DNA of 64,000 nt from an uncultured Gammaproteobacteria bacterium (lineage in GTDB: Bacteria; Patescibacteriota; Patescibacteriia; Magasanikbacterales; GWA2-37-8), in the NCBI GenBank assembly GCA_964407865.1, contig CAYOXC010000001.1, positions 267,978-331,977 of the forward strand, read 5' to 3'. Positions 45,453-61,575 of this stretch are shown here, piece after piece. Every line of letters starts with the position of its first letter. The stretch's first letter is position 1. Under the pieces are notes generated by a model. The model was not told the origin of the DNA, ran no database searches, and saw only the letters and a list, made by a program, of their open reading frames with translations. The position numbers and the translations under genes are program-made.

Positions 45453-45458
45453 ATTTAG

Positions 45459-45917: not shown

Positions 45918-46091
45918 TATTTTTTAAAAATAAACCTTTCGTTACATTCTTTACACTCATAAATTGGGTGTTCTGGCATATTAATTGGTTTTCCCGGTAT
46001 ATAATCCTGAACATCTCCAAAACGAGAACCAGAATCTTCAATGTCAGTAGAATGACATTCTGGGCACTCTAATATATTTGTGGTTTTCATA
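45918..46091 (-). CDS. Small zinc-ribbon protein (57 aa)
   Basis: MKTTNILECPECHSTDIEDSG...IYECKECNERFIFKK with two CxxC pairs; strong RBS AGAGGAGGTG 8 nt upstream; hairpin terminator downstream. Confidence 0.5.
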
Positions 46092-46350
46092 ATATTTTCA
46101 CCTCCTCTCTTTTAATATTTATAACACTAAAATTTTATGATCGGCGCAGTTAAAATGCAAATCTGAAATTTCTCCTTTAAAATAAAGCAAAAAATGATTA
46201 ACTGATCAATTTTATCCACAGTTCAAAAACCCCGCATTTGCGAGGTTGGGTTTAAGTTTAGTACTTTGTCATTTTCGAGGATTGTTTGTGGATCGTCGAG
46301 CTGGCACTCTCATCACACTCTTAATCGTCACGAAGCCTCCTTTGTATATA

Positions 46351-47259: not shown

Positions 47260-48104
47260 GCATTCATTTTTAAAAAAGGCGTATGATTTTGACGATTAAA
47301 ATTATCTTCTTTTTTAGATTCAGCAAAACAAAAGTATTCAATAAAATTTTCTCTCTCACTATTCTTTGAAAAATAATTATAAAATTCATTCCATAATTTT
47401 AAGGCCTCAATCTGTTTTGATTGCGGGGTTTCGCTTAATAAATAATTTTTAATGAGATCGGCGCTTGATAATTCTACTCGTTTTGAATTAATTGCCTCAA
47501 AAATATCTGACTCCTCTGCAGTGTGACTTAACTCAATAATAACAAACTCAACACCTTGAAATATGAAATTATAAATTTGATTAATTTGTTTTTTTGTCAT
47601 ACCAGTAAAAAGCTCATCGAAAGTTTCGATTGCCAATACCACATTTTCTGATAAAGTTCTGTGTTCACTTGTATAGACATCAATATTATCGCCATTCCAA
47701 ATTACAGCCTTAAAAAATTCATTTCTTTGCGTTTCATTCAAATCAATGTCCAATCTTTGAAATGTGGTTTTACTAAACCATTGTTTTATATCTCTTTTAT
47801 TATCATCGTCGAGCTTGCCTGAACGCAATAAGCAACGTAATAAAATAATTATTGTAATTATGCGTTGTTGGCCGTCAACTATATAAACTTGTTTGTTTTT
47901 ATAGTCTTTAGTAAGCAATGTCCCCAGATATAAAGTACGTTTATCTTTAATACAAACCTCAATATCTGCTACCAACTGTTCAATTAATTCCCTATTCCAC
48001 GCATAAAATCTTTGATATGGCGGAATAACAATTGTATTTTGAAAAAATTTTGTTAAAAAAATACACGGCACCGGGCTTACTATATTTTTTTTAAAGTTTA
48101 TCAT
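47256..48104 (-). CDS. GmrSD-family N-terminal half (DUF262 / ParB-like nuclease domain)
   Basis: 282 aa; VIPPYQRFYAWNRELIEQLVADI matches the DUF262 [IV]PxYQRxYxW core. Confidence 0.7.
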   Translation of the reverse strand: MINFKKNIVSPVPCIFLTKFFQNTIVIPPYQRFYAWNRELIEQLVADIEVCIKDKRTLYLGTLLTKDYKNKQVYIVDGQQRIITIIILLRCLLRSGKLDDDNKRDIKQWFSKTTFQRLDIDLNETQRNEFFKAVIWNGDNIDVYTSEHRTLSENVVLAIETFDELFTGMTKKQINQIYNFIFQGVEFVIIELSHTAEESDIFEAINSKRVELSSADLIKNYLLSETPQSKQIEALKLWNEFYNYFSKNSERENFIEYFCFAESKKEDNFNRQNHTPFLKMNA

Positions 48105-48119
48105 ACTTTATAAAGCTTA

Positions 48120-48641
48120 CTAATTTGGATTAGATAGACCTAATTTAAATAATGGCAAATATTCAAAATAATATTGACAGCCCACAGAAATAATATAATC
48201 AAGGACGTCTTTATATTGTGGTTTACGAAACCAGTCGCTTAGTATATAAATATATTCAACTTCAATATTTAACGGCGCCATCAATTTAGCATACTGTTTT
48301 CTTTTAAAATCACAAGTCTGTAATTTTTCATCAACCGAGCCGGCAACTTTTTGAAATTTAACCTCAATAACAAATAATGTATTGTTAATAATTACATACA
48401 AGGCCTCATCAGGTAAAAGCTTTTTCGATAATATTTTTTTATAATTAACACCCTTAAATTCGAGAAATTTATATAAGGCATTTTTTCTATAGCTTCGCGC
48501 AACTTCTTTATCCTGAAAAAAAATTACCGAACCTTTAACAGCATATCCTTTTTTCTTTTTCAGAAGTGAAAGAATATCTATTTCCTTTTCAAAATTTAAG
48601 CCTGTAATAGTGTTTCCACCCCCAACGCCTTTTTCTTTCAT
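48120..48641 (-). CDS. Putative type II restriction endonuclease
   Basis: 173 aa; PDEALYVIINNTLFVIEVKFQ fits PD-(D/E)xK; 4-nt overlap with the methyltransferase gene. Confidence 0.5.
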   Translation of the reverse strand: MKEKGVGGGNTITGLNFEKEIDILSLLKKKKGYAVKGSVIFFQDKEVARSYRKNALYKFLEFKGVNYKKILSKKLLPDEALYVIINNTLFVIEVKFQKVAGSVDEKLQTCDFKRKQYAKLMAPLNIEVEYIYILSDWFRKPQYKDVLDYIISVGCQYYFEYLPLFKLGLSNPN

Positions 48642-49471
48642 AATTTTATATCTTTTAAACGTTTAACAGATAGATCCAAATATTTTTTCTCCAAATCAAT
48701 ACCGACAAATTTTCTGTTATTTAATATCGCTGCCAAACCTGTCGTGGCCGAACCAGAAAATGGATCTAAAACAATATCACCCTTATCAGTGCTTGCTAAA
48801 ATAATTCTTACCAATAAATCAATTGGTTTTTGAGTTGGATGTTTACCAAATTTTTTCTCATCTTTTTTCGGTGGATAAATTGACCAGACGCTTCGCATTT
48901 GTAAATTTGGTTTTTTTATAAAATCTTCTGACCAATCACCGTTTTTCATCAAACCATAATTAAACTTGTGTTTTCCTTTTTTATCTTTCCTCGCCCAAAT
49001 CAAAGTCTCATGACTAGCGGTAAAAAAACGACAACTTAAATTAGGCGACGCGTTCGGCTTGAACCATGCGATATCGTTTAAAATATGAAATTTTTCTACC
49101 TGTAATGCAAAACCGCATTGATATATTGAATGATACGTACCGCTTATCCAAATCGTACCGCCCGGCTTTAAAACTCGCTGACATGCTTTTATCCATGAAA
49201 GGTGAAATTCAAAATCTTTTTTAACACCATTGCTTATATCCCATTTACCTTTGTTTACACTAACCATTTTTCCGCCATCACAAGTAAAACCGCCGTTAGA
49301 CAAAAGATAAGGGGGATCTGCAAAAATCATGTCGATGGAATTTTCAGGCAACTGTGCCAAGGTATTTAAGCAGTTATCACGATATAAAACAAAATCCCCT
49401 TTCTGAAAATAGGGTTTTTTTGCAATTTTTGATAAAATCTTGGTCATTTTACTCTTTGCCTTTTTGGGCAT
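48638..49471 (-). CDS. DNA methyltransferase (N4-cytosine/N6-adenine, beta class)
   Basis: 277 aa; IFADPPY (motif IV) precedes DPFSGSATTG (motif I). Confidence 0.85.
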   Translation of the reverse strand: MPKKAKSKMTKILSKIAKKPYFQKGDFVLYRDNCLNTLAQLPENSIDMIFADPPYLLSNGGFTCDGGKMVSVNKGKWDISNGVKKDFEFHLSWIKACQRVLKPGGTIWISGTYHSIYQCGFALQVEKFHILNDIAWFKPNASPNLSCRFFTASHETLIWARKDKKGKHKFNYGLMKNGDWSEDFIKKPNLQMRSVWSIYPPKKDEKKFGKHPTQKPIDLLVRIILASTDKGDIVLDPFSGSATTGLAAILNNRKFVGIDLEKKYLDLSVKRLKDIKL

Positions 49472-49581
49472 AACTTAACTAATGGTTATATTTTACCATT
49501 TTAATTATATAATCGAAAAAAGTTATCCACTATGATCAACATATAATAAATAATCAATTTTAAAACACGTACTCTCAACTA

Positions 49582-51850: not shown

Positions 51851-52570
51851 TTAATAACAATCCTCGATCATCTCACTCGGAAAGCCGTATTCAGACAATT
51901 CGCACGAGATCGCTCCATTGCCATCAAATACTATCTGCCACTGGCCATCCACTTTTGTTGCCAAAAATACACCACCCGGCATACCCTCAACAAAAACAAC
52001 TCCTCCGCGGGCGTGGTTTTCTGTTTCCTTTTCTATGTTCACTGAAATTGTATCATCGTACTTCGGATATTTTTCCGCGAATAGTTCAGTCAGCTCGTCC
52101 GCTGTTGAGGCTTCCGGCACGATGAGGCCGGTACAGCGCCAGTTAATCTCGGTTTGACCGGTTTCTTCGCTCACCACGCAGGCCGGATTGCACCCCTCCT
52201 GCGTGGCATTCAGGTTTGCGTCAAACCACCATGTTTTAGAATTCGGATTGTAATACCCTGGAGAGAGCGATTCTCCGCCTTTAATACACCCCTGCTCCGC
52301 TATTACGCGAGCTTCCGCCTCAGTCATCATTGACTGGACAGTAATATTTTCCGTAAATACCTCGTCATCTGCTCTGCATTGCCTCGGATAGCTCTCCATC
52401 ACTGGATTGCCGGCGGAAACACATTCCTCAAAATTGGATACCTGTTTCACCTGCGGCGCTTCCCTACCCTCTCGCACTTTCGGCATAACAAGGAAGAAAA
52501 TAATAAAAACAGTGAGTAGAGCCGGAAGTACCACTACCAAAAAATTTTTTATTGATGGTTTTGTATCCAT
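51851..52570 (-). CDS. Membrane-anchored hypothetical protein
   Basis: 239 aa; N-terminal TM; Cys-containing ectodomain. Confidence 0.45.
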   Translation of the reverse strand: MDTKPSIKNFLVVVLPALLTVFIIFFLVMPKVREGREAPQVKQVSNFEECVSAGNPVMESYPRQCRADDEVFTENITVQSMMTEAEARVIAEQGCIKGGESLSPGYYNPNSKTWWFDANLNATQEGCNPACVVSEETGQTEINWRCTGLIVPEASTADELTELFAEKYPKYDDTISVNIEKETENHARGGVVFVEGMPGGVFLATKVDGQWQIVFDGNGAISCELSEYGFPSEMIEDCY

Positions 52571-52589
52571 ACCCAGTATATTTATTTAT

Positions 52590-52997
52590 TTATTTATTTA
52601 AAAATGTAATTGTCAACTGTAAAACCGAGGCGAATGAAACCCAAAGCAAATATGGAATATTGACAAGCGCGACCCAGCGGGCGTGAGGCCAAATGGCAAT
52701 CATAGCCCAAATGAGTGTGCCGAGAACGAGAAGGATGTCTATGGCGGCGAGCCAGTTGTTCTGCAGACCGAACTGTAGCGGAGTGAAAGCTAGATTAAAA
52801 ACAAGATTTAAAATAAAAGGCAGAAAAACCAGCCAGGTGATTTTCTTTTGCAAAACCAGAGCAAACGCCCAGCCGAAAGAAATGGCGATAAGAATATACA
52901 AAACAGTCCAAACCGGACCAAAAATCCACGACGGTGGCGCCCAGCTCGGTTTGATCAAAGTTTGATACCAGCTATATGTTGGTGTAACATTTGCCAT
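52590..52997 (-). CDS. tspO: TspO/MBR family (tryptophan-rich sensory protein)
   Basis: 135 aa; YQTLIKPSWAPPSWIFGPVWTVLY matches the TspO signature. Confidence 0.75.
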   Translation of the reverse strand: MANVTPTYSWYQTLIKPSWAPPSWIFGPVWTVLYILIAISFGWAFALVLQKKITWLVFLPFILNLVFNLAFTPLQFGLQNNWLAAIDILLVLGTLIWAMIAIWPHARWVALVNIPYLLWVSFASVLQLTITFLNK

Positions 52998-53070
52998 ATT
53001 TAGCTAAAATTTAATGAAAAACATATCTAAATTATACTACTTTTTACCCTTTAGCGTCAAAGACTATTTA

Positions 53071-53162
53071 TTGACATTTTTGTCGACAACTGCTACTGTT
53101 TACTGTTTCGTACATTTACAAAAAAATAGCCCCGGAAAGGCTATACAAAAAAGGAGAAAGAA
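53071..53162 (+). promoter_or_regulatory. Promoter/5'UTR cassette copy 1
   Basis: TTGACA at 53071; 17-nt spacer; TACTGT; ACTGTTT ACTGTTT direct repeat; UTR hairpin ATAGCC-ccggaaa-GGCTAT; AAGGAG RBS. Repeated at 54339 and 55659. Confidence 0.5.
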
Positions 53163-54074
53163 ATGTATGTAGCGAGCACAAAAGATGTCCTGGCAGATAT
53201 CGCCAGGAGTATATGGAAAGATTTTTTAAGACCGCTCTTAATTTTTCTTGTCAAAGCATTTGCTGTTTGTCTCGCACTTTGCATCATCGCCTATATCGTC
53301 ATGCTCTTTATGGCTCATTCAGCCATCAAAAAAATGACCGATCCGGATAATACGGAATTCCAAACTTTTGCTAGCGCGATACCACTATTCTGCACTGCAA
53401 AAGAAATTGAAGAAAACGAAGAAGAATTCGCTCTGTTGGCTGACTTTGCCAACGATGTTGAAAGGAAAAAAAATAAATGCACCAATTCGCTTGGTGACGC
53501 CTGGGACTGCGCTTCCGAAGCATGGTCGGCACTTGACGACACTGGAACATACAAGAAAGCCTATCAGAAAGGCAAACGGTTAAACCGGGCAAGAAAGAAA
53601 GTCAAAGGCATAATCGAGCGGACTGTCAAACGTATAAAGGCGATTGAGCCATATGACGAAAACAGCGCCGAGCTGAAAAAAGATGCTCTCTCGCTTGCCG
53701 TCTATATAAACAATAATGCAAACGCATGGGATGTGGCAATAAACAGTGAACGTATTGTAAATGAAATTGGACGACGTGGCGATAAAATCTTTGAAAAAGA
53801 TAATTTGAAAAAAATTTCCAAACATATTTGGGATAAATACCCCCAATCTATCGTCCTGATTTTCGACCCTGTTTACAAAATATTCGCTGACGAGGATAGT
53901 CTCAAAGAAGCAGCGTGGCGTTCAAAGACATTCCGCGAAGCGATGAGTGACGACGGCTGTCTTACCAACATATATACTGACAATATCGCTCCGGCTAGAT
54001 TTGTCGGCTTTGCTGCACTGATGGGAATGATGCAAAAAGATGAGCCGACAGAAGAAGCTGACGATACCGAATAA
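53163..54074 (+). CDS. Membrane-anchored hypothetical protein, paralog A
   Basis: 303 aa; TM anchor; shares DPDN, CTNS, RTVKRI.AIE.YDEN.A.LK.D..SLA.Y.NNN and RSKTFR blocks with 54431-55321. Confidence 0.6.
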   Translation: MYVASTKDVLADIARSIWKDFLRPLLIFLVKAFAVCLALCIIAYIVMLFMAHSAIKKMTDPDNTEFQTFASAIPLFCTAKEIEENEEEFALLADFANDVERKKNKCTNSLGDAWDCASEAWSALDDTGTYKKAYQKGKRLNRARKKVKGIIERTVKRIKAIEPYDENSAELKKDALSLAVYINNNANAWDVAINSERIVNEIGRRGDKIFEKDNLKKISKHIWDKYPQSIVLIFDPVYKIFADEDSLKEAAWRSKTFREAMSDDGCLTNIYTDNIAPARFVGFAALMGMMQKDEPTEEADDTE

Positions 54075-54104
54075 TCTTTCTTTCCTCTTGCCTATTCTAG
54101 GCCA

Positions 54105-54172
54105 CCCCGCACAACAACGCGGGGCCCAGCCCCGCACAGACGCTTGCGTATTGTGCGGGGTTTTTCTTTTTA
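54105..54172 (+). terminator. Tandem-hairpin rho-independent terminator after paralog A
   Basis: CCCCGC-acaacaac-GCGGGG then CCCCGCACA...TGTGCGGGG followed by TTTTTCTTTTT. Confidence 0.6.
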
Positions 54173-54204
54173 ATTGCGTAATCCGATTAATCTATACGTG
54201 ATTG

Positions 54205-54338
54205 CCGGTAGAATATCTGGAGAACTCTATCGGGCCTGCCCGGTAAAATATCTGGAGAACTCTATCGGGCCTGCCCAGTAGAATCTTTGGAGAGCTCTAT
54301 CGGGCCTGCCCGGTAGAAGCCGAAGGCGTTCTACCGGG
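54205..54338. repeat. 35-bp tandem direct repeat x3, closed by a 30-bp palindrome
   Basis: Unit CCGGTAGAATATCTGGAGAACTCTATCGGGCCTGC, 3 slightly variant copies. Ends with CCCGGTAGAAgccgaaggcgTTCTACCGGG immediately before TTGACA. Confidence 0.85.
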
Positions 54339-54430
54339 TTGACATTTACCTGCATAACTGCTAATGTTTACTGTTTCGTTCATTTACAAAAAAATAGCCC
54401 CGGAAAGGCTATACAAAAAAGGAGAAAGAA
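54339..54430 (+). promoter_or_regulatory. Promoter/5'UTR cassette copy 2
   Basis: About 95% identical to 53071-53162. Confidence 0.5.
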
Positions 54431-55321
54431 TTGAATACCGACAACAAACAAATTGATTCACCATATTCAGTGTGGCCTGGATTAAAAAAAGCTCTCAAAG
54501 TAATATTTCTTCTATTTTCTATAATTGTCATTGGTGCACTAATATGTATATATATTGTCACCGATAAGCTGGTACACAAATTGATCGATCCCGATAATCA
54601 CGAAATAGAGTTGATAGCCAGCATGATGCCACTGTGGTGTAGTGTCTATGAATTTCAAGAACATGCTGATGAATATGAAGAATTCGCTAATTTTATAGAT
54701 GAAGCATTACAAAAGAAGGATGAATGCACTAATTCGCCCCTCGGCAGCATTAAATGTGCAAAACAATTGTACGGAACACTTAAAAATCCCGAATCCTATT
54801 TTCGTGGAATTCAAAAAGGTTCGCAGCTATATCAGGCACATAATGAATTCAAGAGTCTTGCTTCACGAACAGTAAAAAGAATTGAAGCAATTGAAACCTA
54901 CGACGAAAATACTGCCAAACTAAAACAAGATTTGGTTTCATTGGCCAGGTACGTTAACAACAACCTAAACATTGTCTCTTTGGTTACCAAATCGGATGAA
55001 ATTCTTGAAGGAATAGAGGAACGTGCGATAATTCTAGGAAATGACGAGCAGCTAATAGATAATATTATAGTGAATACTATGGATAAGTATTATCCTGAAA
55101 TCTTTATAGTACTCCATCCGTTGGTTAGTAAAATTTCCTTTGCTATAATAGTCAACCACGATGAGTTTAATGATGTTAAACTTGAACGCTTATTTGTGCG
55201 CTCTAAAACATTCAGAGATGAGTGGAACCACGGCTGCATCACTAAGATGACATGGCCGGCTGAAAAAAGAAATGTTCGATCACTAATCGAACACATTGTT
55301 CACACCGTAGATAATTGGTAG
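54431..55321 (+). CDS. Membrane-anchored hypothetical protein, paralog B
   Basis: 296 aa from a TTG start at the same spacing from the RBS as the ATG of paralog A. Confidence 0.6.
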   Translation: MNTDNKQIDSPYSVWPGLKKALKVIFLLFSIIVIGALICIYIVTDKLVHKLIDPDNHEIELIASMMPLWCSVYEFQEHADEYEEFANFIDEALQKKDECTNSPLGSIKCAKQLYGTLKNPESYFRGIQKGSQLYQAHNEFKSLASRTVKRIEAIETYDENTAKLKQDLVSLARYVNNNLNIVSLVTKSDEILEGIEERAIILGNDEQLIDNIIVNTMDKYYPEIFIVLHPLVSKISFAIIVNHDEFNDVKLERLFVRSKTFRDEWNHGCITKMTWPAEKRNVRSLIEHIVHTVDNW

Positions 55322-55354
55322 TACCTTTCCTCGGCCACATACTGATCATATCTC

Positions 55355-55421
55355 CCCGCACAACAATGCGGGGCCCAGCCCCGCACAGACGCTTGCGTAT
55401 TGTGCGGGGTTTTTCTTTTTA
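55355..55421 (+). terminator. Tandem-hairpin terminator after paralog B
   Basis: Nearly identical to 54105-54172. Confidence 0.6.
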
Positions 55422-55453
55422 ATTGCGTAATCCGATTAATCTATACGTGATTG

Positions 55454-55657
55454 CCGGTAGAATATCTGGAGAACTCTATCGGGCCTGCCCGGTAAAATAT
55501 CTGGAGAACTCTATCGAGCCTGCCCAGTAGAATCTTTGGAGAACTCTATCGGGTCTGCCCGGTAGAATATCTGGAGAACTCTATCAGGCCTGCCCGGTAG
55601 AATCTTTGGAGAGCTCTATCGGGCCTGCCCGGTAGAAGCCGAAGGCGTTCTACCGGG
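55454..55657. repeat. 35-bp tandem direct repeat x5, closed by the same 30-bp palindrome
   Basis: Same unit as 54205-54338 with five copies; copy number differs between the two loci. Confidence 0.85.
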
Positions 55658-55658
55658 A

Positions 55659-55746
55659 TTGACATTTACCTGCATAACTGCTACTGTTTACTGTTTCGTT
55701 CATTTACAAAAAATGGCCCCGGAAAGGCTGTAACAAGGAGCGAGAA
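55659..55746 (+). promoter_or_regulatory. Promoter/5'UTR cassette copy 3
   Basis: TTGACATTTACCTGCATAACTGCTACTGTTTACTGTTTCGTTCATTTACA...GGCCCCGGAAAGGC. Confidence 0.5.
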
Positions 55747-56601
55747 ATGAAAAATGAAAACAAGTCAAAAAAATCCCCCAGTCAGCTTTTTTGGTGGCCA
55801 ATCTGTCTTGTGGTTATTGTGCTCAGCGCCGTCCTTATTTCTACCGATACTTCGGCGCAAGAGCAGGTGACAAAATTCCGTAATCCGGATGCGAAATTGG
55901 AAAATTGCTTTGAAATCGGTTTTGATTTTGACAAAGGCATCTACATGAACTGGACCGGCAAGGCCGAGGTGAGATACAAGCAATTCGAAAACAAACTGAA
56001 ACGATATGTACGGCACAACAAGGACGACGAAGAAGCCGCCGAAATGCTAAAATTCCTACAAGAGGAAGTCGGACCGATTATGCCCGACTATTTCAATGGA
56101 GACTACGACGCGCGAGTAAAGATCAACAATATTGCCGAGAAGGATAAGAAGAAAAAAGAATGGCTTGAGGGCTCAATCGGTGGCAAGGCAATGACCAAGA
56201 AAAAAGGCGCGGTCAGCCGCGTCCGAGGATACCAATTCCTGAAAGTCTATGATGAAAAAGCTGTGAGCAAGGGGTATGCTAAAGCAAATATTCAAATCCC
56301 TCACGATGTGGAAGCTCTCGGACTGAAACTGTTTACTCTTGACGTAAACGCTGCCGGAGGCAGTGCCTCTGATACGATCACGATTTACAACCGACCGGAC
56401 GGCAAGCCACAGGCTGAAGTCAAAGCCGGCGCGAAAATGTGGGCGCTCGACGGCACCGATGGTTGGATGCGCGTCACCTACGTTGACGACAAGGGAGACC
56501 TTGTCTGGGGCTACGTGCTCGGCCCGAAAATTCAAAAAAAAGTTGAGGAGCTCTCTGGCCAGCCCGTTCCAAAAAGAGAAAAGGGTAAGAAGAAATTTTA
56601 A
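55747..56601 (+). CDS. Membrane-anchored protein with C-terminal SH3b-like domain
   Basis: 284 aa; TM anchor; C-terminal ITIYNRPDGKPQAEVKAGAKMWALDGTDGWMRVTYVDDKGDLVWGYV resembles bacterial SH3 domains. Confidence 0.55.
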   Translation: MKNENKSKKSPSQLFWWPICLVVIVLSAVLISTDTSAQEQVTKFRNPDAKLENCFEIGFDFDKGIYMNWTGKAEVRYKQFENKLKRYVRHNKDDEEAAEMLKFLQEEVGPIMPDYFNGDYDARVKINNIAEKDKKKKEWLEGSIGGKAMTKKKGAVSRVRGYQFLKVYDEKAVSKGYAKANIQIPHDVEALGLKLFTLDVNAAGGSASDTITIYNRPDGKPQAEVKAGAKMWALDGTDGWMRVTYVDDKGDLVWGYVLGPKIQKKVEELSGQPVPKREKGKKKF

Positions 56602-56630
56602 CAAATAACAGCCGAAAAGGAGGCAAAAAA

Positions 56631-56915
56631 ATGGGTGCACGAACTGTTCGAAACACTTGTTCTTCATGTGATGGTAGTGGAAAGACATGGAGCAGTGAAA
56701 GGTGCTCCAGCTGTGACGGCAAAGGTTGGGTCAGTGGAATATTTGGTGGTGAAAAAGTCTGTTCCCGTTGTGACGGCGACGGCAACATCAGCAGGCACAA
56801 CGTTACCTGTTCCAGTTGTAACGGCAAAGGCTACAGCGTCTCGGTAGAAGAAGAGAGTGAACAGCCAAGGCGTAACCGACGTGGCGAGTACGTATGGGAT
56901 AGAGACGACGACTAA
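56631..56915 (+). CDS. Stand-alone DnaJ-type zinc-finger mini-protein (4x CxxCxGxG)
   Basis: 94 aa with CSSCDGSGK, CSSCDGKGW, CSRCDGDGN, CSSCNGKGY and an acidic tail; AAGGAGG RBS. Confidence 0.6.
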   Translation: MGARTVRNTCSSCDGSGKTWSSERCSSCDGKGWVSGIFGGEKVCSRCDGDGNISRHNVTCSSCNGKGYSVSVEEESEQPRRNRRGEYVWDRDDD

Positions 56916-57211
56916 CATTTCTCCGCTTTGCACTTTCCTTTTTATCCGTTCTGGATAAACTAACCCCGCGCTATACGCGGGGATTTTTTTATAACAATCA
57001 TGTTAATAAAAAATAAATTATTTACAATCTCGTTTTCTAAATAGTTCATTTAACAACTGGGCGGTCAGAAAATGACAGGAGCAACGAGATCAATCTGCAA
57101 CTACTCACTCATACCCTGTTCATTCCGAATAAAGCCCATATAAATCAATGCTTGGTTTTATATTTATAAAAAGGACTTTCGCTAAAAATTAAGTAAAAAT
57201 TCTGTCGGATA

Positions 57212-57240
57212 TTGACTAAATTAATTTTTTCATCTATACT
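57212..57240 (+). promoter_or_regulatory. Sigma70-like promoter of the first small CxxC gene
   Basis: TTGACT-17 nt-TATACT. The 5'UTR at 57270-57288 carries TCTACCGG-aacaa-CCGGTA, the same half-site found in the 35-bp repeats. Confidence 0.5.
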
Positions 57241-57311
57241 TTGCATTCAGTTCTTTCTAAAATAGTAGATCTACCGGAACAACCGGTACACTCACAAAAG
57301 CGGAGGCTGGA

Positions 57312-57536
57312 ATGTTGGCGCAGAAACAAGTTAAGAAACGCGAACTGAAAAAAGAAGAGTTTCACATTATCTGCGAAAGTTGTGGCATGATACAATATTT
57401 CAACGCAACAAGCGAACTGGCGGCAAAAATCACAGCGCAAAATAATCACGTGGTGTATTGCGAACGCCACAGATCCCGGTGTGTTTCCCCAAAAATGAAA
57501 ATGACACGTCCTAACGGGACTACTGTCTACATTTAG
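57312..57536 (+). CDS. Small CxxC protein, paralog 1
   Basis: 74 aa; FHIICESCG...A..I....H..YCERHRSRC. Confidence 0.5.
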   Translation: MLAQKQVKKRELKKEEFHIICESCGMIQYFNATSELAAKITAQNNHVVYCERHRSRCVSPKMKMTRPNGTTVYI

Positions 57537-57680
57537 CCTTCCGAACTACCAAACCCTGCCACAAGCAGGGTTTTATCATACACGATTACGCGACAAGCTA
57601 ATTAGGGATATAATCGGGTTGACAATCACATATTTCCACGCTAAGGTACGGGCGGTTCTTTTTAAATAAGGGAGGTAATA

Positions 57681-57896
57681 ATGGCATCAAAATGGAGATC
57701 TGCGCCAAAAAAAGATACATTGGCGAAAAATAATATTATTGTTTACAATTTCTTCTGTTCGCAGTGTGAATTTGCTACCACAGTGGAAGCTTTAAATCTG
57801 CAAGAAGCGCTGGGGGAATCATTCAGAAAACACCATAATCACCACAACCAGGAAGGCAGCAGTTGTGAGGGCAAATACTACGAAATTTTTGATTGA
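57681..57896 (+). CDS. Small CxxC protein, paralog 2
   Basis: 71 aa; YNFFCSQCEF...EA....F..HH.HH...SCEG; TTGACA promoter and AGGGAGG RBS upstream. Confidence 0.5.
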   Translation: MASKWRSAPKKDTLAKNNIIVYNFFCSQCEFATTVEALNLQEALGESFRKHHNHHNQEGSSCEGKYYEIFD

Positions 57897-57948
57897 ACTG
57901 AAAAAAACACTCCCGCCTAAATGGCGGCAGTCAAACAAGGAGGAGATA

Positions 57949-58419
57949 ATGGAACAAACGGACAAACTGCCCATGATTTTTGAAGACAAAATGCCCCGCC
58001 TCAAACAACTGATGCGGATACCGCAGAAGAAACCGGTGTATGTACTCGTCGTAGATGACAACGAATACGCCGTCATCGGTATGCGGACCATTCTCGGACA
58101 CTGGAACAATCTCGGCGCCACCACGACCATCGTCTCGAACGGACAAATGCCACACATCGATCTCAACAACCACATCATCCTGATCGATTCGGATATGGCT
58201 GGAGTCAAAGACGAAGACATCTACAACTGGCTCTCTGATCAGTCCTACGCCGGCATCGTCGCGTCGACTCTCTACTACGGCACAGACACACCTGCGCGTG
58301 TCGGCAGGCACTACCGATACCACTTCGGCTACAAAGTTGGCATCGGCACGTCTTTCGCGACCGCGATCGAATTCGTCAAATTCATGAACGAACTGATCGC
58401 CGATGCCGAAAAACACTAA
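57949..58419 (+). CDS. Atypical receiver (REC)-like domain protein
   Basis: About 157 aa from the ATG after CAAGGAGG. VYVLVVDDNEY (acidic pocket), IILIDSDMAG (putative phospho-Asp), GIVASTLYYG (Thr/Ser) and HFGYKVG (Lys) sit in REC-consistent order. Confidence 0.45.
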   Translation: MEQTDKLPMIFEDKMPRLKQLMRIPQKKPVYVLVVDDNEYAVIGMRTILGHWNNLGATTTIVSNGQMPHIDLNNHIILIDSDMAGVKDEDIYNWLSDQSYAGIVASTLYYGTDTPARVGRHYRYHFGYKVGIGTSFATAIEFVKFMNELIADAEKH

Positions 58420-58491
58420 AAAATGAGGTTCGCGCACATCATGATAAAAACACTTGGATTCGACATTGGCCAAGAATAGAAAGGAGGAGCC

Positions 58492-58707
58492 GTGGAAGAA
58501 AAAAATGATGAAGAAAGACTGGTCGGAAATTATCATTTTCTCTGTCTCGAGTGCGACTTCGGAATTAACATTCAAAGCACGGACATAGAAGCAGCCACAC
58601 GGGAAGCTTTTATCCGGCATGATGCCTACTTCGAAGGCATCATGTTCAAATGCAGTGCTGATCACTACCGGATTACCGGCCCGGACGGAACGTTCGTTGA
58701 ATTCTAG
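58492..58707 (+). CDS. Small CxxC protein, paralog 3
   Basis: GTG start 5 nt after AAAGGAGG; YHFLCLECDFG...EA.IRH....KCSADH; hairpin terminator downstream. Confidence 0.5.
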   Translation: MEEKNDEERLVGNYHFLCLECDFGINIQSTDIEAATREAFIRHDAYFEGIMFKCSADHYRITGPDGTFVEF

Positions 58708-58867
58708 CCAAAATCAAACAAGTCTCCCACCCGCTCATTGCCCACACCCCTCGCTATCAAGCGAGGTTTTTTCTTCTGCAATTTAATATAACCCATACCT
58801 AATTGACAAAACTGCCAAAATACGCTAACTTTGTTCAAATGCACATTTCACCAAAAAGGAGGTACTA

Positions 58868-59125
58868 ATGGGTTTTAACAAAACTGACGATGAGTCTTGT
58901 GATGAAATATTCCAAGAGAAAGTCACGAAAAAAAAGTACACGCTAGAATTACTCACCACCAGTAGTCGCAACTATTCGTTCAAGTGCTTGGACTGCGATT
59001 TCGCTGTAATAGTGAACACAAGCAGTAGAAGCGAGGCCGTGACAGAGGCCTTGTACCAACACGACATTTTTCACAGCAAAATTAGCGACAAGGGTTGCGA
59101 TGCCGACAACTTTGAACTACGCTAA
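58868..59125 (+). CDS. Small CxxC protein, paralog 4
   Basis: 85 aa; YSFKCLDCDF...EA..QHDIFH...GCDAD; TTGACA promoter at 58803 and AAGGAGG RBS. Confidence 0.5.
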   Translation: MGFNKTDDESCDEIFQEKVTKKKYTLELLTTSSRNYSFKCLDCDFAVIVNTSSRSEAVTEALYQHDIFHSKISDKGCDADNFELR

Positions 59126-59338
59126 AAAATTTTCAAAAAAGACAAAAAAATTGCCCTTCAATCACCGGTCTGACCGTTAGCAGGCCGGTTTTTATTTATA
59201 TTTGATATTTTGCCTACCCCCTTGACAAAACCGTTATTTTATGCTATACTAGAGACCTCAAAATCGTGCTTCCAAGTAGAAAATAGTCGAATTTCTGCAG
59301 AGGCCGTCTTTGCAGCTTAGTTCACTATCTAACCTATT

Positions 59339-59542
59339 ATGAACGGAAAAATCAAAAGATTAACAGACAAAGGGTTCGGTTTTATCGCTCCTGAGGGAGA
59401 AGATGGAAAGGATATTTTCTTCCATTCCTCTGCTCTTCAGGGTGTTACCTTCGACGAATTACGCGAAGGAGATGCCGTCACCTTTGACACTGAAGATTCA
59501 GACAAGGGCCCTCGCGCTACCAATGTAGCTCGCGTCGCCTAA
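59339..59542 (+). CDS. cspA: Cold-shock protein (CspA family)
   Basis: 67 aa; GKIKRLTDKGFGFIAPEGEDGKDIFFHSSAL RNP motifs; TTGACA-17-TATACT promoter with about 100-nt leader; terminator at 59559-59585. Confidence 0.9.
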   Translation: MNGKIKRLTDKGFGFIAPEGEDGKDIFFHSSALQGVTFDELREGDAVTFDTEDSDKGPRATNVARVA

Positions 59543-59558
59543 ATCTAAAAAATAAATG

Positions 59559-59585
59559 CCCCGACCTAGCGTCGGGGTTTTTATT
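59559..59585 (+). terminator. Rho-independent terminator after csp
   Basis: CCCCGAC-ctagc-GTCGGGG followed by TTTTTATTTT. Confidence 0.7.
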
Positions 59586-59722
59586 TTATTTGTTTTATAA
59601 ACGCCTGATAAAATTTTACCGATTGTTTTGGTTGTGGGCATTGTGCACAATTGACAAAATATTTTAAATGCTCTATCATAATGCTCTGTATTTTTTCAAA
59701 CACTCATCCAACTAGGAGGGAA

Positions 59723-59956
59723 ATGATGCTGGCCAAAGGTAAAATACACAATTTTGAGTTCGTCTGTTCATCCTGCGGATACATCGCAAACGTGGCCGCA
59801 TATGATCCGGCCGAAGCGGTAAAATCCGGTTTTCAACTTCACGACATACGTCAAAGAGACAGCAAAATGCCGTGCTACAACAACCGGAAAAAATGCGGAC
59901 TCCGGCAACTCAAAACCGAGGAGAAATCACAGCTTAATTTAGCGTTCTTTTTTTAA
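59723..59956 (+). CDS. Small CxxC protein, paralog 5 (GFQLHDI subfamily)
   Basis: Start ATG after CTAGGAGGG; FEFVCSSCGY...GFQLHDIRQ...PC...KKC; TTGACA-17-TATCAT promoter upstream. The track ORF extends further upstream to 59651. Confidence 0.55.
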   Translation: MMLAKGKIHNFEFVCSSCGYIANVAAYDPAEAVKSGFQLHDIRQRDSKMPCYNNRKKCGLRQLKTEEKSQLNLAFFF

Positions 59957-59978
59957 CTAACAAAAGGAAGGTAACGAA

Positions 59979-60185
59979 ATGCCTAAAAAGGCTCCCGTAC
60001 ATGTCTATGAATTTACCTGCTTGATCTGCGGATACAGTACGTATGTGACTGCATCCTATGTCGCAGAGGCGATTGCGCCAGGATTTCAACTGCATGATAT
60101 CCACCAGGAAGAATCCCGCAACAAATGCTTCAACCCTGAAAAGAAATGTCGAGTTAAGAATATCGAAAATCAAAAACTAGTATAA
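59979..60185 (+). CDS. Small CxxC protein, paralog 6 (GFQLHDI subfamily)
   Basis: 68 aa; YEFTCLICGY...GFQLHDIHQ...KCFNPEKKC; AAGGAAGG RBS; co-transcribed with paralog 5. Confidence 0.55.
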   Translation: MPKKAPVHVYEFTCLICGYSTYVTASYVAEAIAPGFQLHDIHQEESRNKCFNPEKKCRVKNIENQKLV

Positions 60186-60315
60186 CCTCCACCTTTCTTG
60201 TTCTTTACATTGACCGATCTGTTCTGGGTCGGTTTTTTAATATTTGACAAAAAATTTTAAATAGCATAAAATGCTGTTCTCTAAAATGTTCTTTTCAACA
60301 ACCTGGGAGGGTAAA

Positions 60316-60938: not shown

Positions 60939-60967
60939 TTGACAGGTGAACAAATGTTCACTATAAT
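60939..60967 (+). promoter_or_regulatory. lexA promoter with embedded LexA box
   Basis: TTGACA(60939)-17 nt-TATAAT(60962). The spacer contains the perfect palindrome GTGAAC-aaat-GTTCAC at 60946-60961, matching the Gram-positive-type LexA/Cheo consensus. Confidence 0.65.
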
Positions 60968-61002: not shown

Positions 61003-61575
61003 ATGCCAAACAAATATCTCCCCTATTTTATTAGATTTTATAAACGCCACCACCGTCTGCCAAGCTATCGCGAATTCATGGAACTATCCGCGCTTAAATC
61101 CACCAACGCGGTTCATAAAATTACAGCCAAGCTGGAAGAAGAAGGATTTTTACGGCGCGATGAATCAGGACGATTGACGCCAGGGCGCAAATTTTTGGGT
61201 CTACCACTTTTAGGCGATATTGCCGCCGGCTTCCCCTCTGCTGCCGAAGAAGAACTGTGCGACACAATGACTCTGGATGAATACCTGGTGCCTCACAAAG
61301 AAGCTACCTACATGCTCAAGGTATCCGGCGACAGCATGATTGAAGCTGGTATTATGCCGGGCGATCTTGTTTTGGTTGAACGAGGCCGTGAAGCGCGCAA
61401 CGGCGATGTAGTGGTGGCTGAGGTGGATAAATCCTGGACCCTAAAATATTTTGACAAAAAAGGCAAACAGGTGCGACTAATTCCAGCCAACAAAAAATAC
61501 AAGCCGATTGTACCGACTGATGAATTAAACATAGCCGCTGTAGTAATCGGGGTTGTGCGGAAGTATAAGACTTAA
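61003..61575 (+). CDS. lexA: LexA repressor (S24 peptidase)
   Basis: 190 aa; N-terminal wHTH; Ala-Gly cleavage site (IAAGFP); catalytic Ser in VSGDSM; Lys in VVVAEVDKSWTLK. Confidence 0.85.
   Translation: MPNKYLPYFIRFYKRHHRLPSYREFMELSALKSTNAVHKITAKLEEEGFLRRDESGRLTPGRKFLGLPLLGDIAAGFPSAAEEELCDTMTLDEYLVPHKEATYMLKVSGDSMIEAGIMPGDLVLVERGREARNGDVVVAEVDKSWTLKYFDKKGKQVRLIPANKKYKPIVPTDELNIAAVVIGVVRKYKT

What the first reader, a model, noticed from the sequence alone, without database searches (positions are those of the whole stretch)
53071..55746. Tandem paralog cassette: coding regions diverged but the intergenic regulatory modules are almost identical
The two membrane-anchored proteins at 53163-54074 and 54431-55321 are clear paralogs but strongly diverged (roughly one-third identity; one uses ATG, the other TTG). 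Yet the non-coding module after each gene (tandem-hairpin terminator, 33-nt spacer, 35-bp repeat array, palindrome, TTGACA promoter, 5'UTR hairpin ATAGCC-ccggaaa-GGCTAT, RBS) is nearly identical between copies. A third copy of the promoter/UTR drives the SH3b gene at 55747.

Non-coding DNA more conserved than the flanking coding DNA is the reverse of neutral expectation. It implies gene conversion or strong selection on a regulatory element; a recently spread mobile promoter cassette is a third possibility.
Basis: seen in the sequence. Interest (0 to 1): 0.75.

Follow-up and report, generated by a model that had tools for sequence, protein, structure and literature searches.

The report
Recently copied terminator–repeat–promoter spacer between old paralogs
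In an uncultured ultra-small (CPR, Magasanikbacteria-like) bacterium, the stretches between three neighbouring genes carry almost identical copies of one terminator, hairpin-repeat and promoter block although the genes themselves are very different. The most likely cause is recent copying of non-coding DNA within the genome, a known process, seen here in an unusual composite form.

Summary
Genes 53163-54074 and 54431-55321 are 33-35% identical in protein and 48.5% in DNA, with synonymous sites saturated. The spacers after them are 99.0% identical (284 matches, 3 mismatches) from the first terminator hairpin to the leader. They differ mainly by two extra 35-bp units, 3.3 against 5.3 copies. A third promoter and leader copy (53071-53162) drives gene 1. 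The copy at 55659-55746 drives gene 3, which is not homologous to genes 1 and 2.

Selection alone cannot explain this: in an ortholog pair of the same family, the promoter (82%) is no better conserved than the coding DNA (80%). The best explanation is recent non-reciprocal copying (gene conversion) of whole spacers between independent transcription units. These lie in a fast-evolving envelope-protein island of a Magasanikbacteria-like CPR genome.

Four related genomes show the same habit with their own module sequences. The promoter and leader type is ancestral to the gene family.

No other copies were found in the window or in any collection searched. I found no mobile-element hallmarks, no recombinase and no Rfam match. 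The function of the 35-bp hairpin array is unresolved; a boundary or insulator role is my guess. The "SH3b" label for gene 3 is unverified.

It is a new variant of a known kind, of moderate interest.

The parts
53071..53162 (+). P1, the promoter and leader copy for gene 1. It has a -35 TTGACA (53071-53076), a 17-nt spacer ending in TGC, a -10 TACTGT (53094-53099) and a GTAC variant of the GTTC box (53110-53121). It also has the leader hairpin ATAGCC-CCGGAAA-GGCTAT (53126-53144) and the ribosome-binding site GGAG (53153-53156). There is no terminator or repeat array upstream, because the neighbour is a divergent TspO gene.
   Evidence: It is 91% identical to P2. All but two of the differences lie in the spacer between -35 and -10.
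53163..54074 (+). Gene 1, 303 aa. It is an all-helical protein with an N-terminal membrane anchor and four conserved cysteines. It belongs to an orphan family and is probably the ortholog of the single copy found in relatives.
54075..54104 (+). Pyrimidine-rich 3' tail specific to gene 1. It lies outside the copied tract and shares only the CTTTCCTC and GGCCAC motifs with the tail of gene 2.
54105..54171 (+). Tandem-hairpin intrinsic terminator of gene 1. Hairpin 1 is at 54105-54124, hairpin 2 at 54128-54162, followed by TTTTTCTTTTT.
   Evidence: -35.6 kcal/mol, z -5.7. It differs from the copy at 55354-55420 by one base, in a loop.
54172..54204 (+). 33-nt spacer, identical in both modules
   Evidence: (D9)
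54205..54309 (+). Array of three 35-bp units. Each unit is an imperfect hairpin with a 10-bp stem (GCCCGGTAGA / TCTATCGGGC), and units are separated by 2 nt.
   Evidence: -15.7 kcal/mol per unit, z -3.4
54308..54338 (+). Perfect-arm palindrome GCCCGGTAGAA-GCCGAAGGCG-TTCTACCGGG, directly next to the -35 box
   Evidence: I1; -22.9 kcal/mol, z -5.2
54339..54430 (+). P2, the promoter and leader copy for gene 2. It has -35 at 54339-54344, -10 TAATGT at 54362-54367 and the GTTC box at 54378-54389. The leader hairpin is at 54394-54412, GGAG at 54421-54424, and the TTG start at 54431.
54431..55321 (+). Gene 2, 296 aa with a TTG start. It is a diverged paralog of gene 1 and is about equally distant from all known family members (25-34%).
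55322..55353 (+). 3' tail specific to gene 2, outside the copied tract
55354..55453 (+). Second copy of the tandem-hairpin terminator (55354-55420) and of the 33-nt spacer (55421-55453)
55454..55657 (+). Array of five 35-bp units (55454-55628) followed by the same palindrome (55627-55657)
   Evidence: The order of unit variants matches the first array, apart from a 70-nt internal indel.
55659..55746 (+). P3, the promoter and leader copy in front of the non-homologous gene 3. It has -35 at 55659-55664, -10 TACTGT at 55682-55687 and the GTTC box at 55698-55709. The hairpin (55713-55731) carries two A-to-G changes that keep G-U pairs. GGAG is at 55737-55740.
55747..56915 (+). Genes 3 and 4, which form a two-gene unit driven by P3. 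Gene 3 (55747-56601) is 284 aa, has a signal or anchor sequence, and its 'SH3b' label is unverified. Gene 4 (56631-56915) is a 94-aa protein with a DnaJ-type CXXCXGXG zinc finger.
56964..56992 (+). Terminator of the gene 3-4 unit, CCCCGCGCTATACGCGGGG followed by a T-run. It is related to hairpin 1 of the modules but is not part of the copied tract.

Best explanation
The locus is a row of three independent transcription units in a fast-evolving envelope-protein island of a Magasanikbacteria-like CPR genome. Each unit has its own copy of one ancestral promoter and leader: TTGACA, a 17-nt spacer ending TGC, TAnTGT, a GTTC box, an A-rich tract, a small stem-loop and a ribosome-binding site. The first two units end in a strong double-hairpin terminator.

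The near-identity of the spacers is a historical signal, not a sign of function at every base. Whole boundary modules were copied recently from one spacer to the other by non-reciprocal homologous recombination (gene conversion). Each module comprises terminator, 33-nt spacer, 35-bp hairpin array, palindrome, promoter and leader. The copying was probably anchored on the terminator and promoter segments that the units already shared.

The tracts stop at the coding regions. Those are about 50% identical in DNA, too different to recombine, and chimeric proteins would probably be selected against. A separate tract made P1 and P2 identical from the -10 box to the start codon. Unequal recombination or slippage within the array then removed two units behind gene 1.

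Functionally, I infer that the module is a unit boundary. It ends the upstream transcript, buffers read-through with further hairpins, and restarts transcription from a co-regulated promoter.

Shown: the sequence pattern, the copy tracts, and the recurrence in relatives. Inferred: the recombination mechanism, the transcription start (about 54374 and 55694), terminator and promoter activity, and any role of the 35-bp array.
For: 1. Coding DNA is 48.5% identical with synonymous sites saturated, while the module core is 99.0% identical.
2. Calibration: in family orthologs L003 and L006 the promoter and leader (82%) evolve as fast as the coding DNA (80%). Purifying selection therefore does not give about 99%.
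3. Identity covers the 33-nt spacer, the hairpin loops and the order of unit variants.
4. Differences unique to P1 all lie 5' of alignment column 42, and those unique to P3 all lie 3' of column 50. P2 has a single unique difference. This implies two tracts with different ends.
5. Unit 3 of the first array equals the 5' part of unit 3 plus the 3' part of unit 5 of the second array, consistent with a single 70-nt deletion.
6. The pattern recurs as within-genome sameness against between-genome difference:
   - L009 has 94.6% identical 130-nt terminator modules on both sides of its family gene.
   - L005 has three modules, 82-93% identical, behind unrelated genes.
   - L017 has two.
   - L016 has a repeated terminator and leader.
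   - The L009 family-gene promoter is nearly identical over about 75 nt to the L016 promoter of the gene 3 homolog, yet clearly different from the window's.
7. The promoter architecture is ancestral: -35, a TGn extended -10 and the GTTC box are present in front of family genes in seven loci.
8. The same genome holds another sharply bounded copy, the HAD genes 40020-40709 and 42363-43046. These are about 100% identical over the coding region only.
9. Terminator, unit and palindrome hairpins are far more stable than shuffled sequence.
Against: - No direct test of recombination is possible with three copies. The partition test (p about 6e-4) falls to about 0.06 if the six clustered spacer differences count as one event. 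With three sequences every difference is a singleton.
- Only 64 kb of a contig of at least 463 kb was available. Dispersed copies elsewhere, which would favour a mobile element, cannot be excluded.
- L009 and L016 come from different samples, so they may not be one genome.
- The calibration rests on one ortholog pair.
- There are no expression data, so promoter, terminator and leader functions are consensus-based. The -10 hexamers score only 3 of 6 and were missed by the consensus scan.
- P1 has no array or palindrome. This argues that these are not needed for promoter activity, and it leaves the array's role open.
Confidence: 0.6

Rival explanations
1. The module, or its parts, is a small non-autonomous mobile or modular repeat, comparable to BOX, SPRITE or a 'putative mobile promoter'. 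It inserted independently behind gene 1 and behind gene 2, bringing a terminator, a variable hairpin array and an outward-facing promoter.
For: - The layout of conserved flanks around a variable number of tandem internal units mirrors pneumococcal boxA-(boxB)n-boxC. SPRITE is a terminator-like interspersed repeat found at the 3' ends of genes (PMC3049150).
- P2 and P3 meet the operational definition of a mobile promoter (PMC3488235).
- Terminator modules of one type (CCGGGCAAACC plus a hairpin) recur in L005, L017, L003 and at window 58705-58790 behind non-orthologous genes.
- Hairpin inserts flanked by GGTTGAC direct repeats sit at the -35 box in L016 and L017.
Against: - There are only two adjacent full copies. 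The other 60 kb has none, even allowing 3 mismatches.
- No terminal inverted repeats join the module ends, and no target-site duplication is visible.
- No transposase or RAYT was found among the 40 window ORFs scanned.
- There were no hits in GTDB genomes, JGI metagenomes, IMG/VR, phages or plasmids.
- The right end coincides with a start codon and the promoter is the family's ancestral one. This is not what an inserted element would give.
Confidence: 0.15
2. Cassette replacement. A recent tandem duplication produced identical units, and one coding region was then replaced by a very different allele. The replacement came from imported DNA (natural transformation) or from another locus, with the conserved spacers acting as homology arms.
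For: - The family evolves very fast: 35-40% identity between genomes whose LexA-like proteins are 76% and cold-shock proteins 82-85% identical.
- Gene 2 is no closer to gene 1 than to copies from other genomes.
- Copy number and unit order differ between genomes. There is one copy in L005 and L006, gene 3 comes before the family gene in L017, and the L017 copy is frameshifted.
- CPR Saccharibacteria are naturally competent (PMC10187176 abstract).
Against: - It requires a donor that carries the same module flanks around a 35%-identical allele. No such donor, nor any other sequence with these flanks, was found.
- The first 30 nt after each stop codon are unit-specific, so the left arm would begin only at the terminator.
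- It does not explain P3 in front of a non-homologous gene, or the two different tract ends.
Confidence: 0.12
3. Purifying selection alone. Every part of the spacer is a functional regulatory element, kept unchanged since an ancient duplication.
For: The promoter architecture (-35, TGn extended -10, GTTC box) and a leader stem-loop are conserved across genera. The hairpins are thermodynamically significant.
Against: - Between orthologs, only short motifs are conserved, and overall promoter identity (82%) is no higher than that of the coding DNA.
- The modules of relatives have quite different sequences.
- The 35-bp array and this terminator sequence are absent from all relatives found.
- Variant units break their own stems, so the stems are not under tight constraint.
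- P1 lacks the array.
Confidence: 0.05
4. Assembly artefact. A metagenome assembler joined or duplicated sequence through a shared repeat.
For: The source is a metagenome-assembled genome. Short-read assemblies break at this repeat, and the Logan contigs are only 1036 and 1537 nt long.
Against: - The two copies differ by 8 substitutions, a 70-nt indel and distinct flanks.
- Logan contig ends fall exactly where the copy-specific variants predict.
- The repeat graph has two entries (the 3' ends of genes 1 and 2) and two exits (into genes 2 and 3). Its only linear solution is the assembled order.
- The organism was recovered from three runs.
Confidence: 0.03

Closest known systems
Putative mobile promoters, or promoter reuse in prokaryotes (Matus-Garcia et al. 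2012, PMC3488235; Nijveen et al. 2012, PMC3575422)
   Same: Highly similar upstream regions (over 50 nt at 80% or more) sit in front of coding regions that do not align. Conservation ends a few bases before the start codon. That paper suggests that small families of two or three copies arise by local recombination rather than transposition.
   Different: Here the copied tract is 320-390 nt. It also includes the upstream gene's terminator and a tandem hairpin array. The copies are adjacent, two of the three downstream genes are old paralogs, and the promoter is the family's ancestral one.
Pneumococcal BOX (boxA-(boxB)n-boxC) and SPRITE elements (Croucher et al. 2011, PMC3049150)
   Same: Both are composite intergenic repeats with conserved ends and a variable number of tandem internal units that fold on their own. 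SPRITE is a repeated terminator-like element enriched just after coding regions. Arrays with more units vary more in length.
   Different: BOX and SPRITE are interspersed repeats found at many separate loci around the genome, and BOX has terminal inverted repeats. Here there are two adjacent copies, no inverted ends, and a complete sigma-70-type promoter and leader forms the right-hand part.
Mycoplasma bovis vsp and M. agalactiae vpma variable surface protein loci (PMC3365025)
   Same: A cluster of diverged surface or membrane protein genes, each preceded by a highly conserved non-coding block of about 70 bp, in a small-genome bacterium. The locus content differs between strains.
   Different: In vsp and vpma, conservation continues into the signal peptide, and a site-specific xer recombinase sits next to the cluster and inverts the genes. 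Here identity stops at the start codon, no recombinase was found, all units have their own promoter, and there are no repetitive coding regions.
Enterobacterial REP / BIME clusters (from my own knowledge; named in the background of PMC3049150)
   Same: Imperfect palindromes of about 35 nt, GC-rich, clustered in spacers after genes. They are proposed to stabilise mRNA 3' ends, attenuate transcription and bind gyrase or IHF.
   Different: BIME units alternate in orientation, are separated by linkers, and occur hundreds of times per genome with a dedicated RAYT transposase. Here the units are strictly head-to-tail, 2 nt apart, at two sites only.
Concerted evolution by gene conversion, for example among bacterial rRNA operons (PMC8022953, listed)
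   Same: Repeated copies are kept alike within a genome while diverging between genomes.
   Different: Here the homogenised part is the non-coding boundary, and the coding regions escape. This is the reverse of the usual case.

Membership tests
Putative mobile promoter (operational definition of PMC3488235) | Two upstream regions align over more than 50 nt at 80% identity or more | tested here: met
   P2 against P3 is 93% identical over 88 nt. P1 against P2 is 91% over 92 nt.
Putative mobile promoter (operational definition of PMC3488235) | The downstream coding regions do not align | tested here: met
   Gene 3 against the family profile gives hhalign probability 0.2%. Genes 1 and 2 are protein paralogs (35%) but only 48.5% identical in DNA, which a nucleotide BLAST would not align.
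Putative mobile promoter (operational definition of PMC3488235) | The upstream coding regions do not align | tested here: inconclusive
   The genes upstream of P2 and P3 are genes 1 and 2. They are homologous as proteins but not alignable as DNA, and their terminators are part of the copied tract.
BOX-type modular interspersed repeat | Conserved end modules around a variable number of tandem internal units | tested here: met
   3.3 against 5.3 units of 35 bp between identical flanks
BOX-type modular interspersed repeat | Many interspersed copies in the genome | tested here: not met
   There are no further copies in the remaining 60 kb with up to 3 mismatches. The rest of the genome could not be searched.
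BOX-type modular interspersed repeat | Terminal inverted repeats or MITE-like ends | tested here: not met
   No inverted repeat joins the module ends
REP / BIME | Imperfect palindromic units of about 35 nt clustered after genes | tested here: met
   35-nt unit with a 10-bp stem, -15.7 kcal/mol
REP / BIME | Alternating unit orientation, genome-wide spread and a RAYT transposase | tested here: not met
   All units are direct repeats. There are none elsewhere in the window. No Y1 transposase was found among the ORFs scanned.
vsp / vpma-type variable surface gene locus | A conserved non-coding block in front of each diverged gene | tested here: met
vsp / vpma-type variable surface gene locus | Conservation continues into the N-terminal signal peptide | tested here: not met
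   Identity ends at the start codon
vsp / vpma-type variable surface gene locus | An adjacent site-specific recombinase that drives inversions | tested here: not met
   No recombinase domain was found in the 40 window ORFs scanned with Pfam. All three units are on the same strand.
Integron cassette array (attC sites) | attC sites with R''/R' core sites (GTTRRRY) and an integron integrase | tested here: not met
   No integrase was found. The palindrome arm GTTCTAC does not fit GTTRRRY (read from the sequence). These units also carry their own promoters.
CRISPR array | Repeats separated by unique spacers of similar length | tested here: not met
   The units abut with a 35-bp period and no spacers
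Known structured RNA (Rfam 15) | A match at the gathering score | tested here: not met
   The only hit in the window is a tRNA-Ser. The region 52900-57100 has only sub-threshold chance hits.

The most novel reading that the evidence does not exclude
The near-identical boundary modules may be more than by-products of gene conversion. They could be a dedicated device of these ultra-small bacteria. Hairpin-rich terminator, array and promoter blocks would act as portable homology arms and insulators. Through them, self-contained units for fast-evolving envelope proteins would be shuffled, duplicated and exchanged within and between populations, for example by natural transformation, without any dedicated recombinase. 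In that reading, the 35-bp hairpin array is a new kind of cis element, either a recombination hot spot or a transcriptional insulator whose copy number tunes the next promoter.
Probability: 0.1. Interest if true: 0.7.

Novelty: new variant of a known kind. Interest (0 to 1): 0.42.

Why it matters
Regulation and genome dynamics in CPR (Patescibacteria) bacteria are almost unknown, because most cannot be grown. This locus gives three concrete things.

- **A promoter and leader consensus.** It consists of TTGACA, a 17-nt spacer ending TGn, TAnnnT, a GTTC box, an A-rich tract and a small stem-loop. It is shared by a set of island genes across several genomes.
- **Copying of non-coding boundaries.** Whole non-coding boundaries are copied between neighbouring transcription units while their coding regions diverge beyond recognition. 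This matters for anyone inferring regulation or orthology from conserved non-coding DNA.
- **A rare envelope-protein family.** It is orphan and fast-evolving, with 17 representatives among 1.84 billion proteins. Its variable copy number and order suggest a role at the cell surface, perhaps in contact with hosts or phages.

If the modules prove to drive unit shuffling, that would be a simple route to surface variation that needs no recombinase.

Tried and rejected
**Searches for further copies**
- Exact-pattern scans for the promoter core and for the 35-bp unit found nothing. Collections: GTDB species genomes, JGI metagenomes and IMG/VR.
- blastn of the whole module against phages and plasmids found nothing.

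**RNA families and hidden features in the spacers**
- Rfam gave nothing relevant at either gathering or E-value thresholds.
- The longest ORFs in the spacer are 35-39 aa and lack a ribosome-binding site. The 35-bp period is not a multiple of three, so the array does not look coding.
- The consensus scan found no promoter inside the units.

**LexA control**
- A perfect GAAC-N4-GTTC box exists only in the promoter of the LexA-like gene itself (60946-60961).
- P1-P3 have only a lone GTTC.

**Replication origin or iterons**
- Gene orientation switches at about 53 kb, and cumulative GC skew flattens there rather than turning.
- There are no DnaA-box-like repeats.
- I did not pursue this.

**Protein function**
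- Pfam gave nothing for genes 1-3.
- The gene 3 model failed (pLDDT 41), so no fold search was run on it.
- AFDB50 was not available.

**Leader hairpin covariation**
- A MAFFT/RNAalifold test failed because loop lengths differ and the columns fell out of register.
- The hairpins are therefore reported one sequence at a time.

**Other**

Full report
**Anatomy.** On the + strand the window holds three consecutive transcription units.
- Unit 1 is P1 (53071-53162) followed by gene 1 (53163-54074, ATG start, 303 aa).
- Unit 2 is P2 (54339-54430) followed by gene 2 (54431-55321, TTG start, 296 aa).
- Unit 3 is P3 (55659-55746) followed by gene 3 (55747-56601) and gene 4 (56631-56915), ending in a terminator at 56964-56992.

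After gene 1 and after gene 2 comes the same composite module, in this order:
- a unit-specific pyrimidine-rich tail of about 30 nt;
- two hairpins, the second followed by TTTTTCTTTTT (RNA fold -35.6 kcal/mol, z -5.7);
- a 33-nt spacer;
- a head-to-tail array of 35-bp units, 3.3 copies at 54205-54318 and 5.3 copies at 55454-55637;
- a palindrome with perfect 10-11-nt arms (54308-54338 and 55627-55657; -22.9 kcal/mol, z -5.2), which touches the -35 box;
- the promoter and leader.

Each 35-nt unit is itself an imperfect hairpin with a 10-bp stem (-15.7 kcal/mol, z -3.4), and neighbouring units are only 2 nt apart.

- Genes 1 and 2 are 35% identical by BLASTP (E 9e-47).
- Over 285 aligned codons they are 33% identical in protein and 48.5% in DNA. 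Third positions are 33% identical, pS is 0.80 (so dS cannot be computed) and dN is 0.66.
- The module core, 54105-54392 against 55354-55711, has 284 matches and 3 mismatches. It also has a 70-nt indel of exactly two units and a 1-2-nt indel, giving 99.0% identity at aligned bases.
- The unit, the promoter core, the leader hairpin and the palindrome occur nowhere else in the 64 kb, even with up to 3 mismatches. Shuffles give 0-0.04 expected matches.
- P1 against P2 is 91% identical and P2 against P3 is 93%.

The first ~30 nt after each stop codon lie outside the conserved tract. The ribosome-binding part of P3 is clearly diverged. The leader hairpin is weak (-6.7 kcal/mol, z -1.2). The 'SH3b' label for gene 3 has no support from Pfam, and the structure model was unusable (pLDDT 41).

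**Not an assembly artefact.**
- Independent Logan assemblies of three runs contain the same genes.
- The gene 1 contig ends 74 nt after the stop codon, which is 30 nt past the copy-specific base 54118C.
- The gene 3 contig starts at window position 55628, which is 30 nt before the copy-specific extra A at 55658.
- These ends are what a k=31 graph produces at a real repeat (coordinates).
- The repeat has two entries (the 3' ends of genes 1 and 2) and two exits (into genes 2 and 3). The assembled order is therefore the only linear path.

**Organism and gene family.** The closest species-representative locus is a Candidatus Magasanikbacteria MAG (L006). Synteny is conserved in L005, L006 and L017: family gene, cold-shock gene, Pif1 helicase, LexA-like S24 peptidase, Y-family polymerase. 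The window keeps the cold-shock gene (59339-59542) and the LexA-like gene (61003-61575) downstream of the family genes. To the left lies a low-GC defence-type stretch with GmrSD, a DNA methylase and a PD-(D/E)XK nuclease.

The family evolves fast. Gene 1 is 35-40% identical to the L005 and L006 copies, while the LexA-like proteins are 76% and the cold-shock proteins 82-85% identical. Gene 2 is as far from gene 1 (32%) as from any other member (25-34%), and the family tree is star-like. Relatives have one copy, which is frameshifted in L017, and the order of units differs between genomes.

**The promoter and leader are ancestral.** Upstream of family genes in L003, L004, L005, L006, L009 and L010/L011 there is the same architecture. 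It consists of TTGACA (TTGATA in L006, TTTACA in L004), a 17-nt spacer that usually ends in TGC, a TAnnnT/CAnnnT hexamer, and then a box GTTC-N4-ACAA.

In the window this GTTC box follows the -10 in six of the nine TTGACA-type promoters of the + strand island at 53071-60300. P1 carries a GTAC variant. The box is absent at all the other promoter-like sites.

Many of these leaders then have an A-rich tract and a 5-6-bp GC-rich stem-loop with an A-rich loop, 8-17 nt before the ribosome-binding site. The stems differ in sequence: AUAGCC, GCGGCC, GGCGG, GUUGC, AGCCG and UACCGG are folded by the tool, and AGCGG in L009 is read by eye. In P3 two A-to-G changes turn two pairs into G-U, which are allowed only in + strand RNA. 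This is suggestive of an RNA element. A formal covariation test failed on alignment register, and several orthologs lack the hairpin, so I rate it as plausible but not essential.

**Why recent copying rather than selection.**
1. In the ortholog pair L003 and L006, the promoter and leader (82%) are no better conserved than the coding DNA (80%). Selection keeps motifs, not every base.
2. The 99% identity includes the 33-nt spacer, the loops and the order of unit variants.
3. All seven differences unique to P1 lie 5' of alignment column 42, and all seven unique to P3 lie 3' of column 50. P2 has one unique difference. This implies at least two copy tracts with different ends. The permutation p of 6e-4 drops to about 0.06 if the clustered spacer block counts as one event. 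With three copies this shows clustering, not a recombination test in the strict sense.
4. Unit 3 behind gene 1 (CCAGTAGAATCTTTGGAGA|GCTCTATCGGGCCTGC) is the 5' part of unit 3 joined to the 3' part of unit 5 behind gene 2. One 70-nt unequal exchange turns the five-unit array into the three-unit one.
5. Relatives repeat the pattern with their own sequences.
   - L009 has 94.6% identical modules of about 130 nt on both sides of its family gene.
   - L005 has three 134-nt modules, 82-93% identical, behind three unrelated genes.
   - L017 has two.
   - L016 has a repeated terminator and an 82% identical leader in front of two unrelated genes.
   - The promoter of the L009 family gene is almost identical over about 75 nt to the promoter of the gene 3 homolog in L016. 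Both differ strongly from the window's P2 and P3.

   Sameness within a lineage and difference between lineages, for promoters of non-homologous genes, is the signature of concerted evolution.
6. The same genome contains the mirror case. HAD genes 40020-40709 and 42363-43046 are about 100% identical over the coding region, with unrelated flanks. Sharply bounded recent copying therefore does occur here.

**What was not found.**
- There are no further module copies in the window or in the GTDB genomes, JGI metagenomes, IMG/VR, phage or plasmid collections.
- No inverted repeats join the module ends.
- No transposase, RAYT, integrase or recombinase was found among the 40 window ORFs scanned.
- There is no Rfam family, no convincing ORF in the spacers and no LexA box in P1-P3.
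- The source genome is not among the species representatives, so the remaining ~400 kb of its contig could not be searched. This is the main gap.

**How it most likely works.**
- *Shown:* three units share one promoter and leader sequence; two units end in the same strong terminator; the spacers were copied recently.
- *Inferred:*
  - Transcription of gene 1 and gene 2 stops at the double hairpin.
  - The hairpin array and the tight palindrome then act as a buffer. This could work as back-up termination or 3'-end protection on read-through RNA, as a DNA structure or protein-binding array that insulates the next promoter, or both.
  - Transcription restarts a few bases upstream of the GTTC box, about 54374 and 55694.
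  - The shared promoter, GTTC box and leader place genes 1, 2 and 3-4 under common control with the small CxxC-protein genes of the island.

P1 has the same -35 and -10 boxes but no array or palindrome. The array is therefore linked to having a co-directional gene upstream rather than to promoter activity. That is why I prefer a boundary role over an activator-site role, with low confidence (about 0.3 for any specific role).

The copying itself is most simply gene conversion. It would be anchored on the terminator and promoter segments that the units already shared by descent. It is blocked in the coding regions by their ~50% DNA identity and by selection against chimeric proteins.

**Comparison with known systems.**
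- The case fits the operational definition of 'putative mobile promoters' (PMC3488235) for P2 and P3. That paper attributes families of two or three copies to local recombination.
- The layout of conserved ends around a variable tandem core parallels pneumococcal BOX, and the repeated terminators parallel SPRITE (PMC3049150). Dispersal and inverted ends were tested here and not met.
- Conserved 5' blocks in front of diverged surface-protein genes recall Mycoplasma vsp/vpma loci (PMC3365025). Here, however, identity stops at the start codon and no recombinase is present.
- The 35-nt palindromic units resemble REP/BIME in size and position, but not in orientation or spread.

I therefore file it as a new variant of a known kind: intragenomic copying or concerted evolution of regulatory non-coding DNA. 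It is notable for the size and composite nature of the tract and for occurring in a CPR lineage.

**Verdict.** I score interest at 0.42. The most novel reading still open is that the modules are recombination handles or insulators for shuffling envelope-protein units. I give that about 0.1 probability.

Noticed in passing
window 53110-60290 (boxes at about 53110, 54378, 55698, 57250, 57652, 58833, 60276); also L003, L004, L005, L006, L009, L010 upstream of family genes: A conserved box GTTC[AT]T..ACAA lies 1-15 nt after the -10 in six of the nine TTGACA-type promoters of the + strand island, and P1 carries a GTAC variant. It is absent from the other promoter-like sites in the window, including the cold-shock and LexA promoters. 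It is conserved across genera. It could be an operator or a conserved 5' end of the transcripts, marking an island-wide regulon.
   Followed up: partly
window 57312-57536, 57681-57896, 58492-58707, 58868-59125, 59979-60185, plus others read by eye near 59724, 60318 and 60622; L006 6255-6512; L005 13483-13701; L016 2128-2582: A family of about 70-aa proteins with a CxxC motif and conserved histidines. Several paralogs sit in a row, each mostly with its own promoter, always near the membrane-protein family. They have no Pfam domain.
   Followed up: partly
window 60946-60961: A perfect palindrome GTGAACAAATGTTCAC, a Gram-positive-type LexA (Cheo) box, lies between the -35 and -10 of the LexA-like S24 peptidase gene (61003-61575). 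This implies autoregulation and gives the SOS box of this lineage.
   Followed up: no
window 40020-40709 and 42363-43046: Two HAD-hydrolase genes are about 100% identical over about 680 nt of coding DNA while their flanks are unrelated (26-46% identity). This is the mirror image of the finding, and it is evidence of recent, sharply bounded copying in this genome.
   Followed up: partly
window 58705-58790; L005 8942-9075, 9677-9810, 11541-11674; L017 9836-9900 and 11927-11990; L003 1020-1064: A terminator module recurs behind non-orthologous genes in several genomes. It has a C-rich lead-in (..CCGGGCAAACC..) and a hairpin. The hairpin CTCGCTATCAAGCGAG is identical in the window and in all three L005 copies, although the two genomes' LexA-like proteins are only 76% identical.
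   Followed up: partly
window 54075-54095, 55322-55340, 56916-56950, 60186-60205; the 3' ends of genes in L003, L005, L009, L016, L017: The first 15-30 nt after many stop codons are pyrimidine-rich and resemble the anti-Shine-Dalgarno sequence (CTTTCCTC, CCTCCACCTTTCT). They could pair with ribosome-binding regions or act as C-rich Rho entry sites.
   Followed up: no
L016 905-975 and L017 8590-8640: GC-rich palindromic inserts lie directly upstream of the -35 box, flanked by a direct repeat of GGTTGAC (a duplicated -35 edge). They are reminiscent of small insertions or hairpin expansions at the same spot where the window has its palindrome.
   Followed up: no
L017 11026-11926: In this relative the family gene is split by a frameshift into 162-aa and 156-aa pieces (P0011, P0012). 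It also lies after the gene 3 homolog, not before it. So the family is dispensable and the unit order is not fixed.
   Followed up: partly
L010 / L011 (family member P0010): A family member sits next to a serine recombinase (resolvase domain) and an inovirus-like block (Zot, replication protein G2P). This suggests a possible integrated filamentous phage in a related bacterium.
   Followed up: no
window 44000-49500: A low-GC stretch (29-34%) holds GmrSD-type restriction genes, a PD-(D/E)XK nuclease and an N6/N4 DNA methylase. It is a defence island in the same position where L005 has MmeI and NERD genes.
   Followed up: partly
window about 52000-54000: Gene orientation switches from the - strand to the + strand at about 53 kb. 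Cumulative GC skew stops falling there, forming a plateau rather than a clear minimum. I did not examine whether this marks a replication landmark.
   Followed up: no
window 22796-22868 and 24043-24116: A 55-73-nt repeat, 91% identical, contains a terminator-like hairpin. The two copies lie 1.2 kb apart, close to the tRNA-Ser gene (24294-24379).
   Followed up: no
window 57865-58419 (probably starts at the internal ATG, 57949): An ORF whose N-terminal part looks like a response-regulator receiver domain (..VYVLVVDDNEY..) has no Pfam hit. It lies among the small CxxC-protein genes.
   Followed up: no
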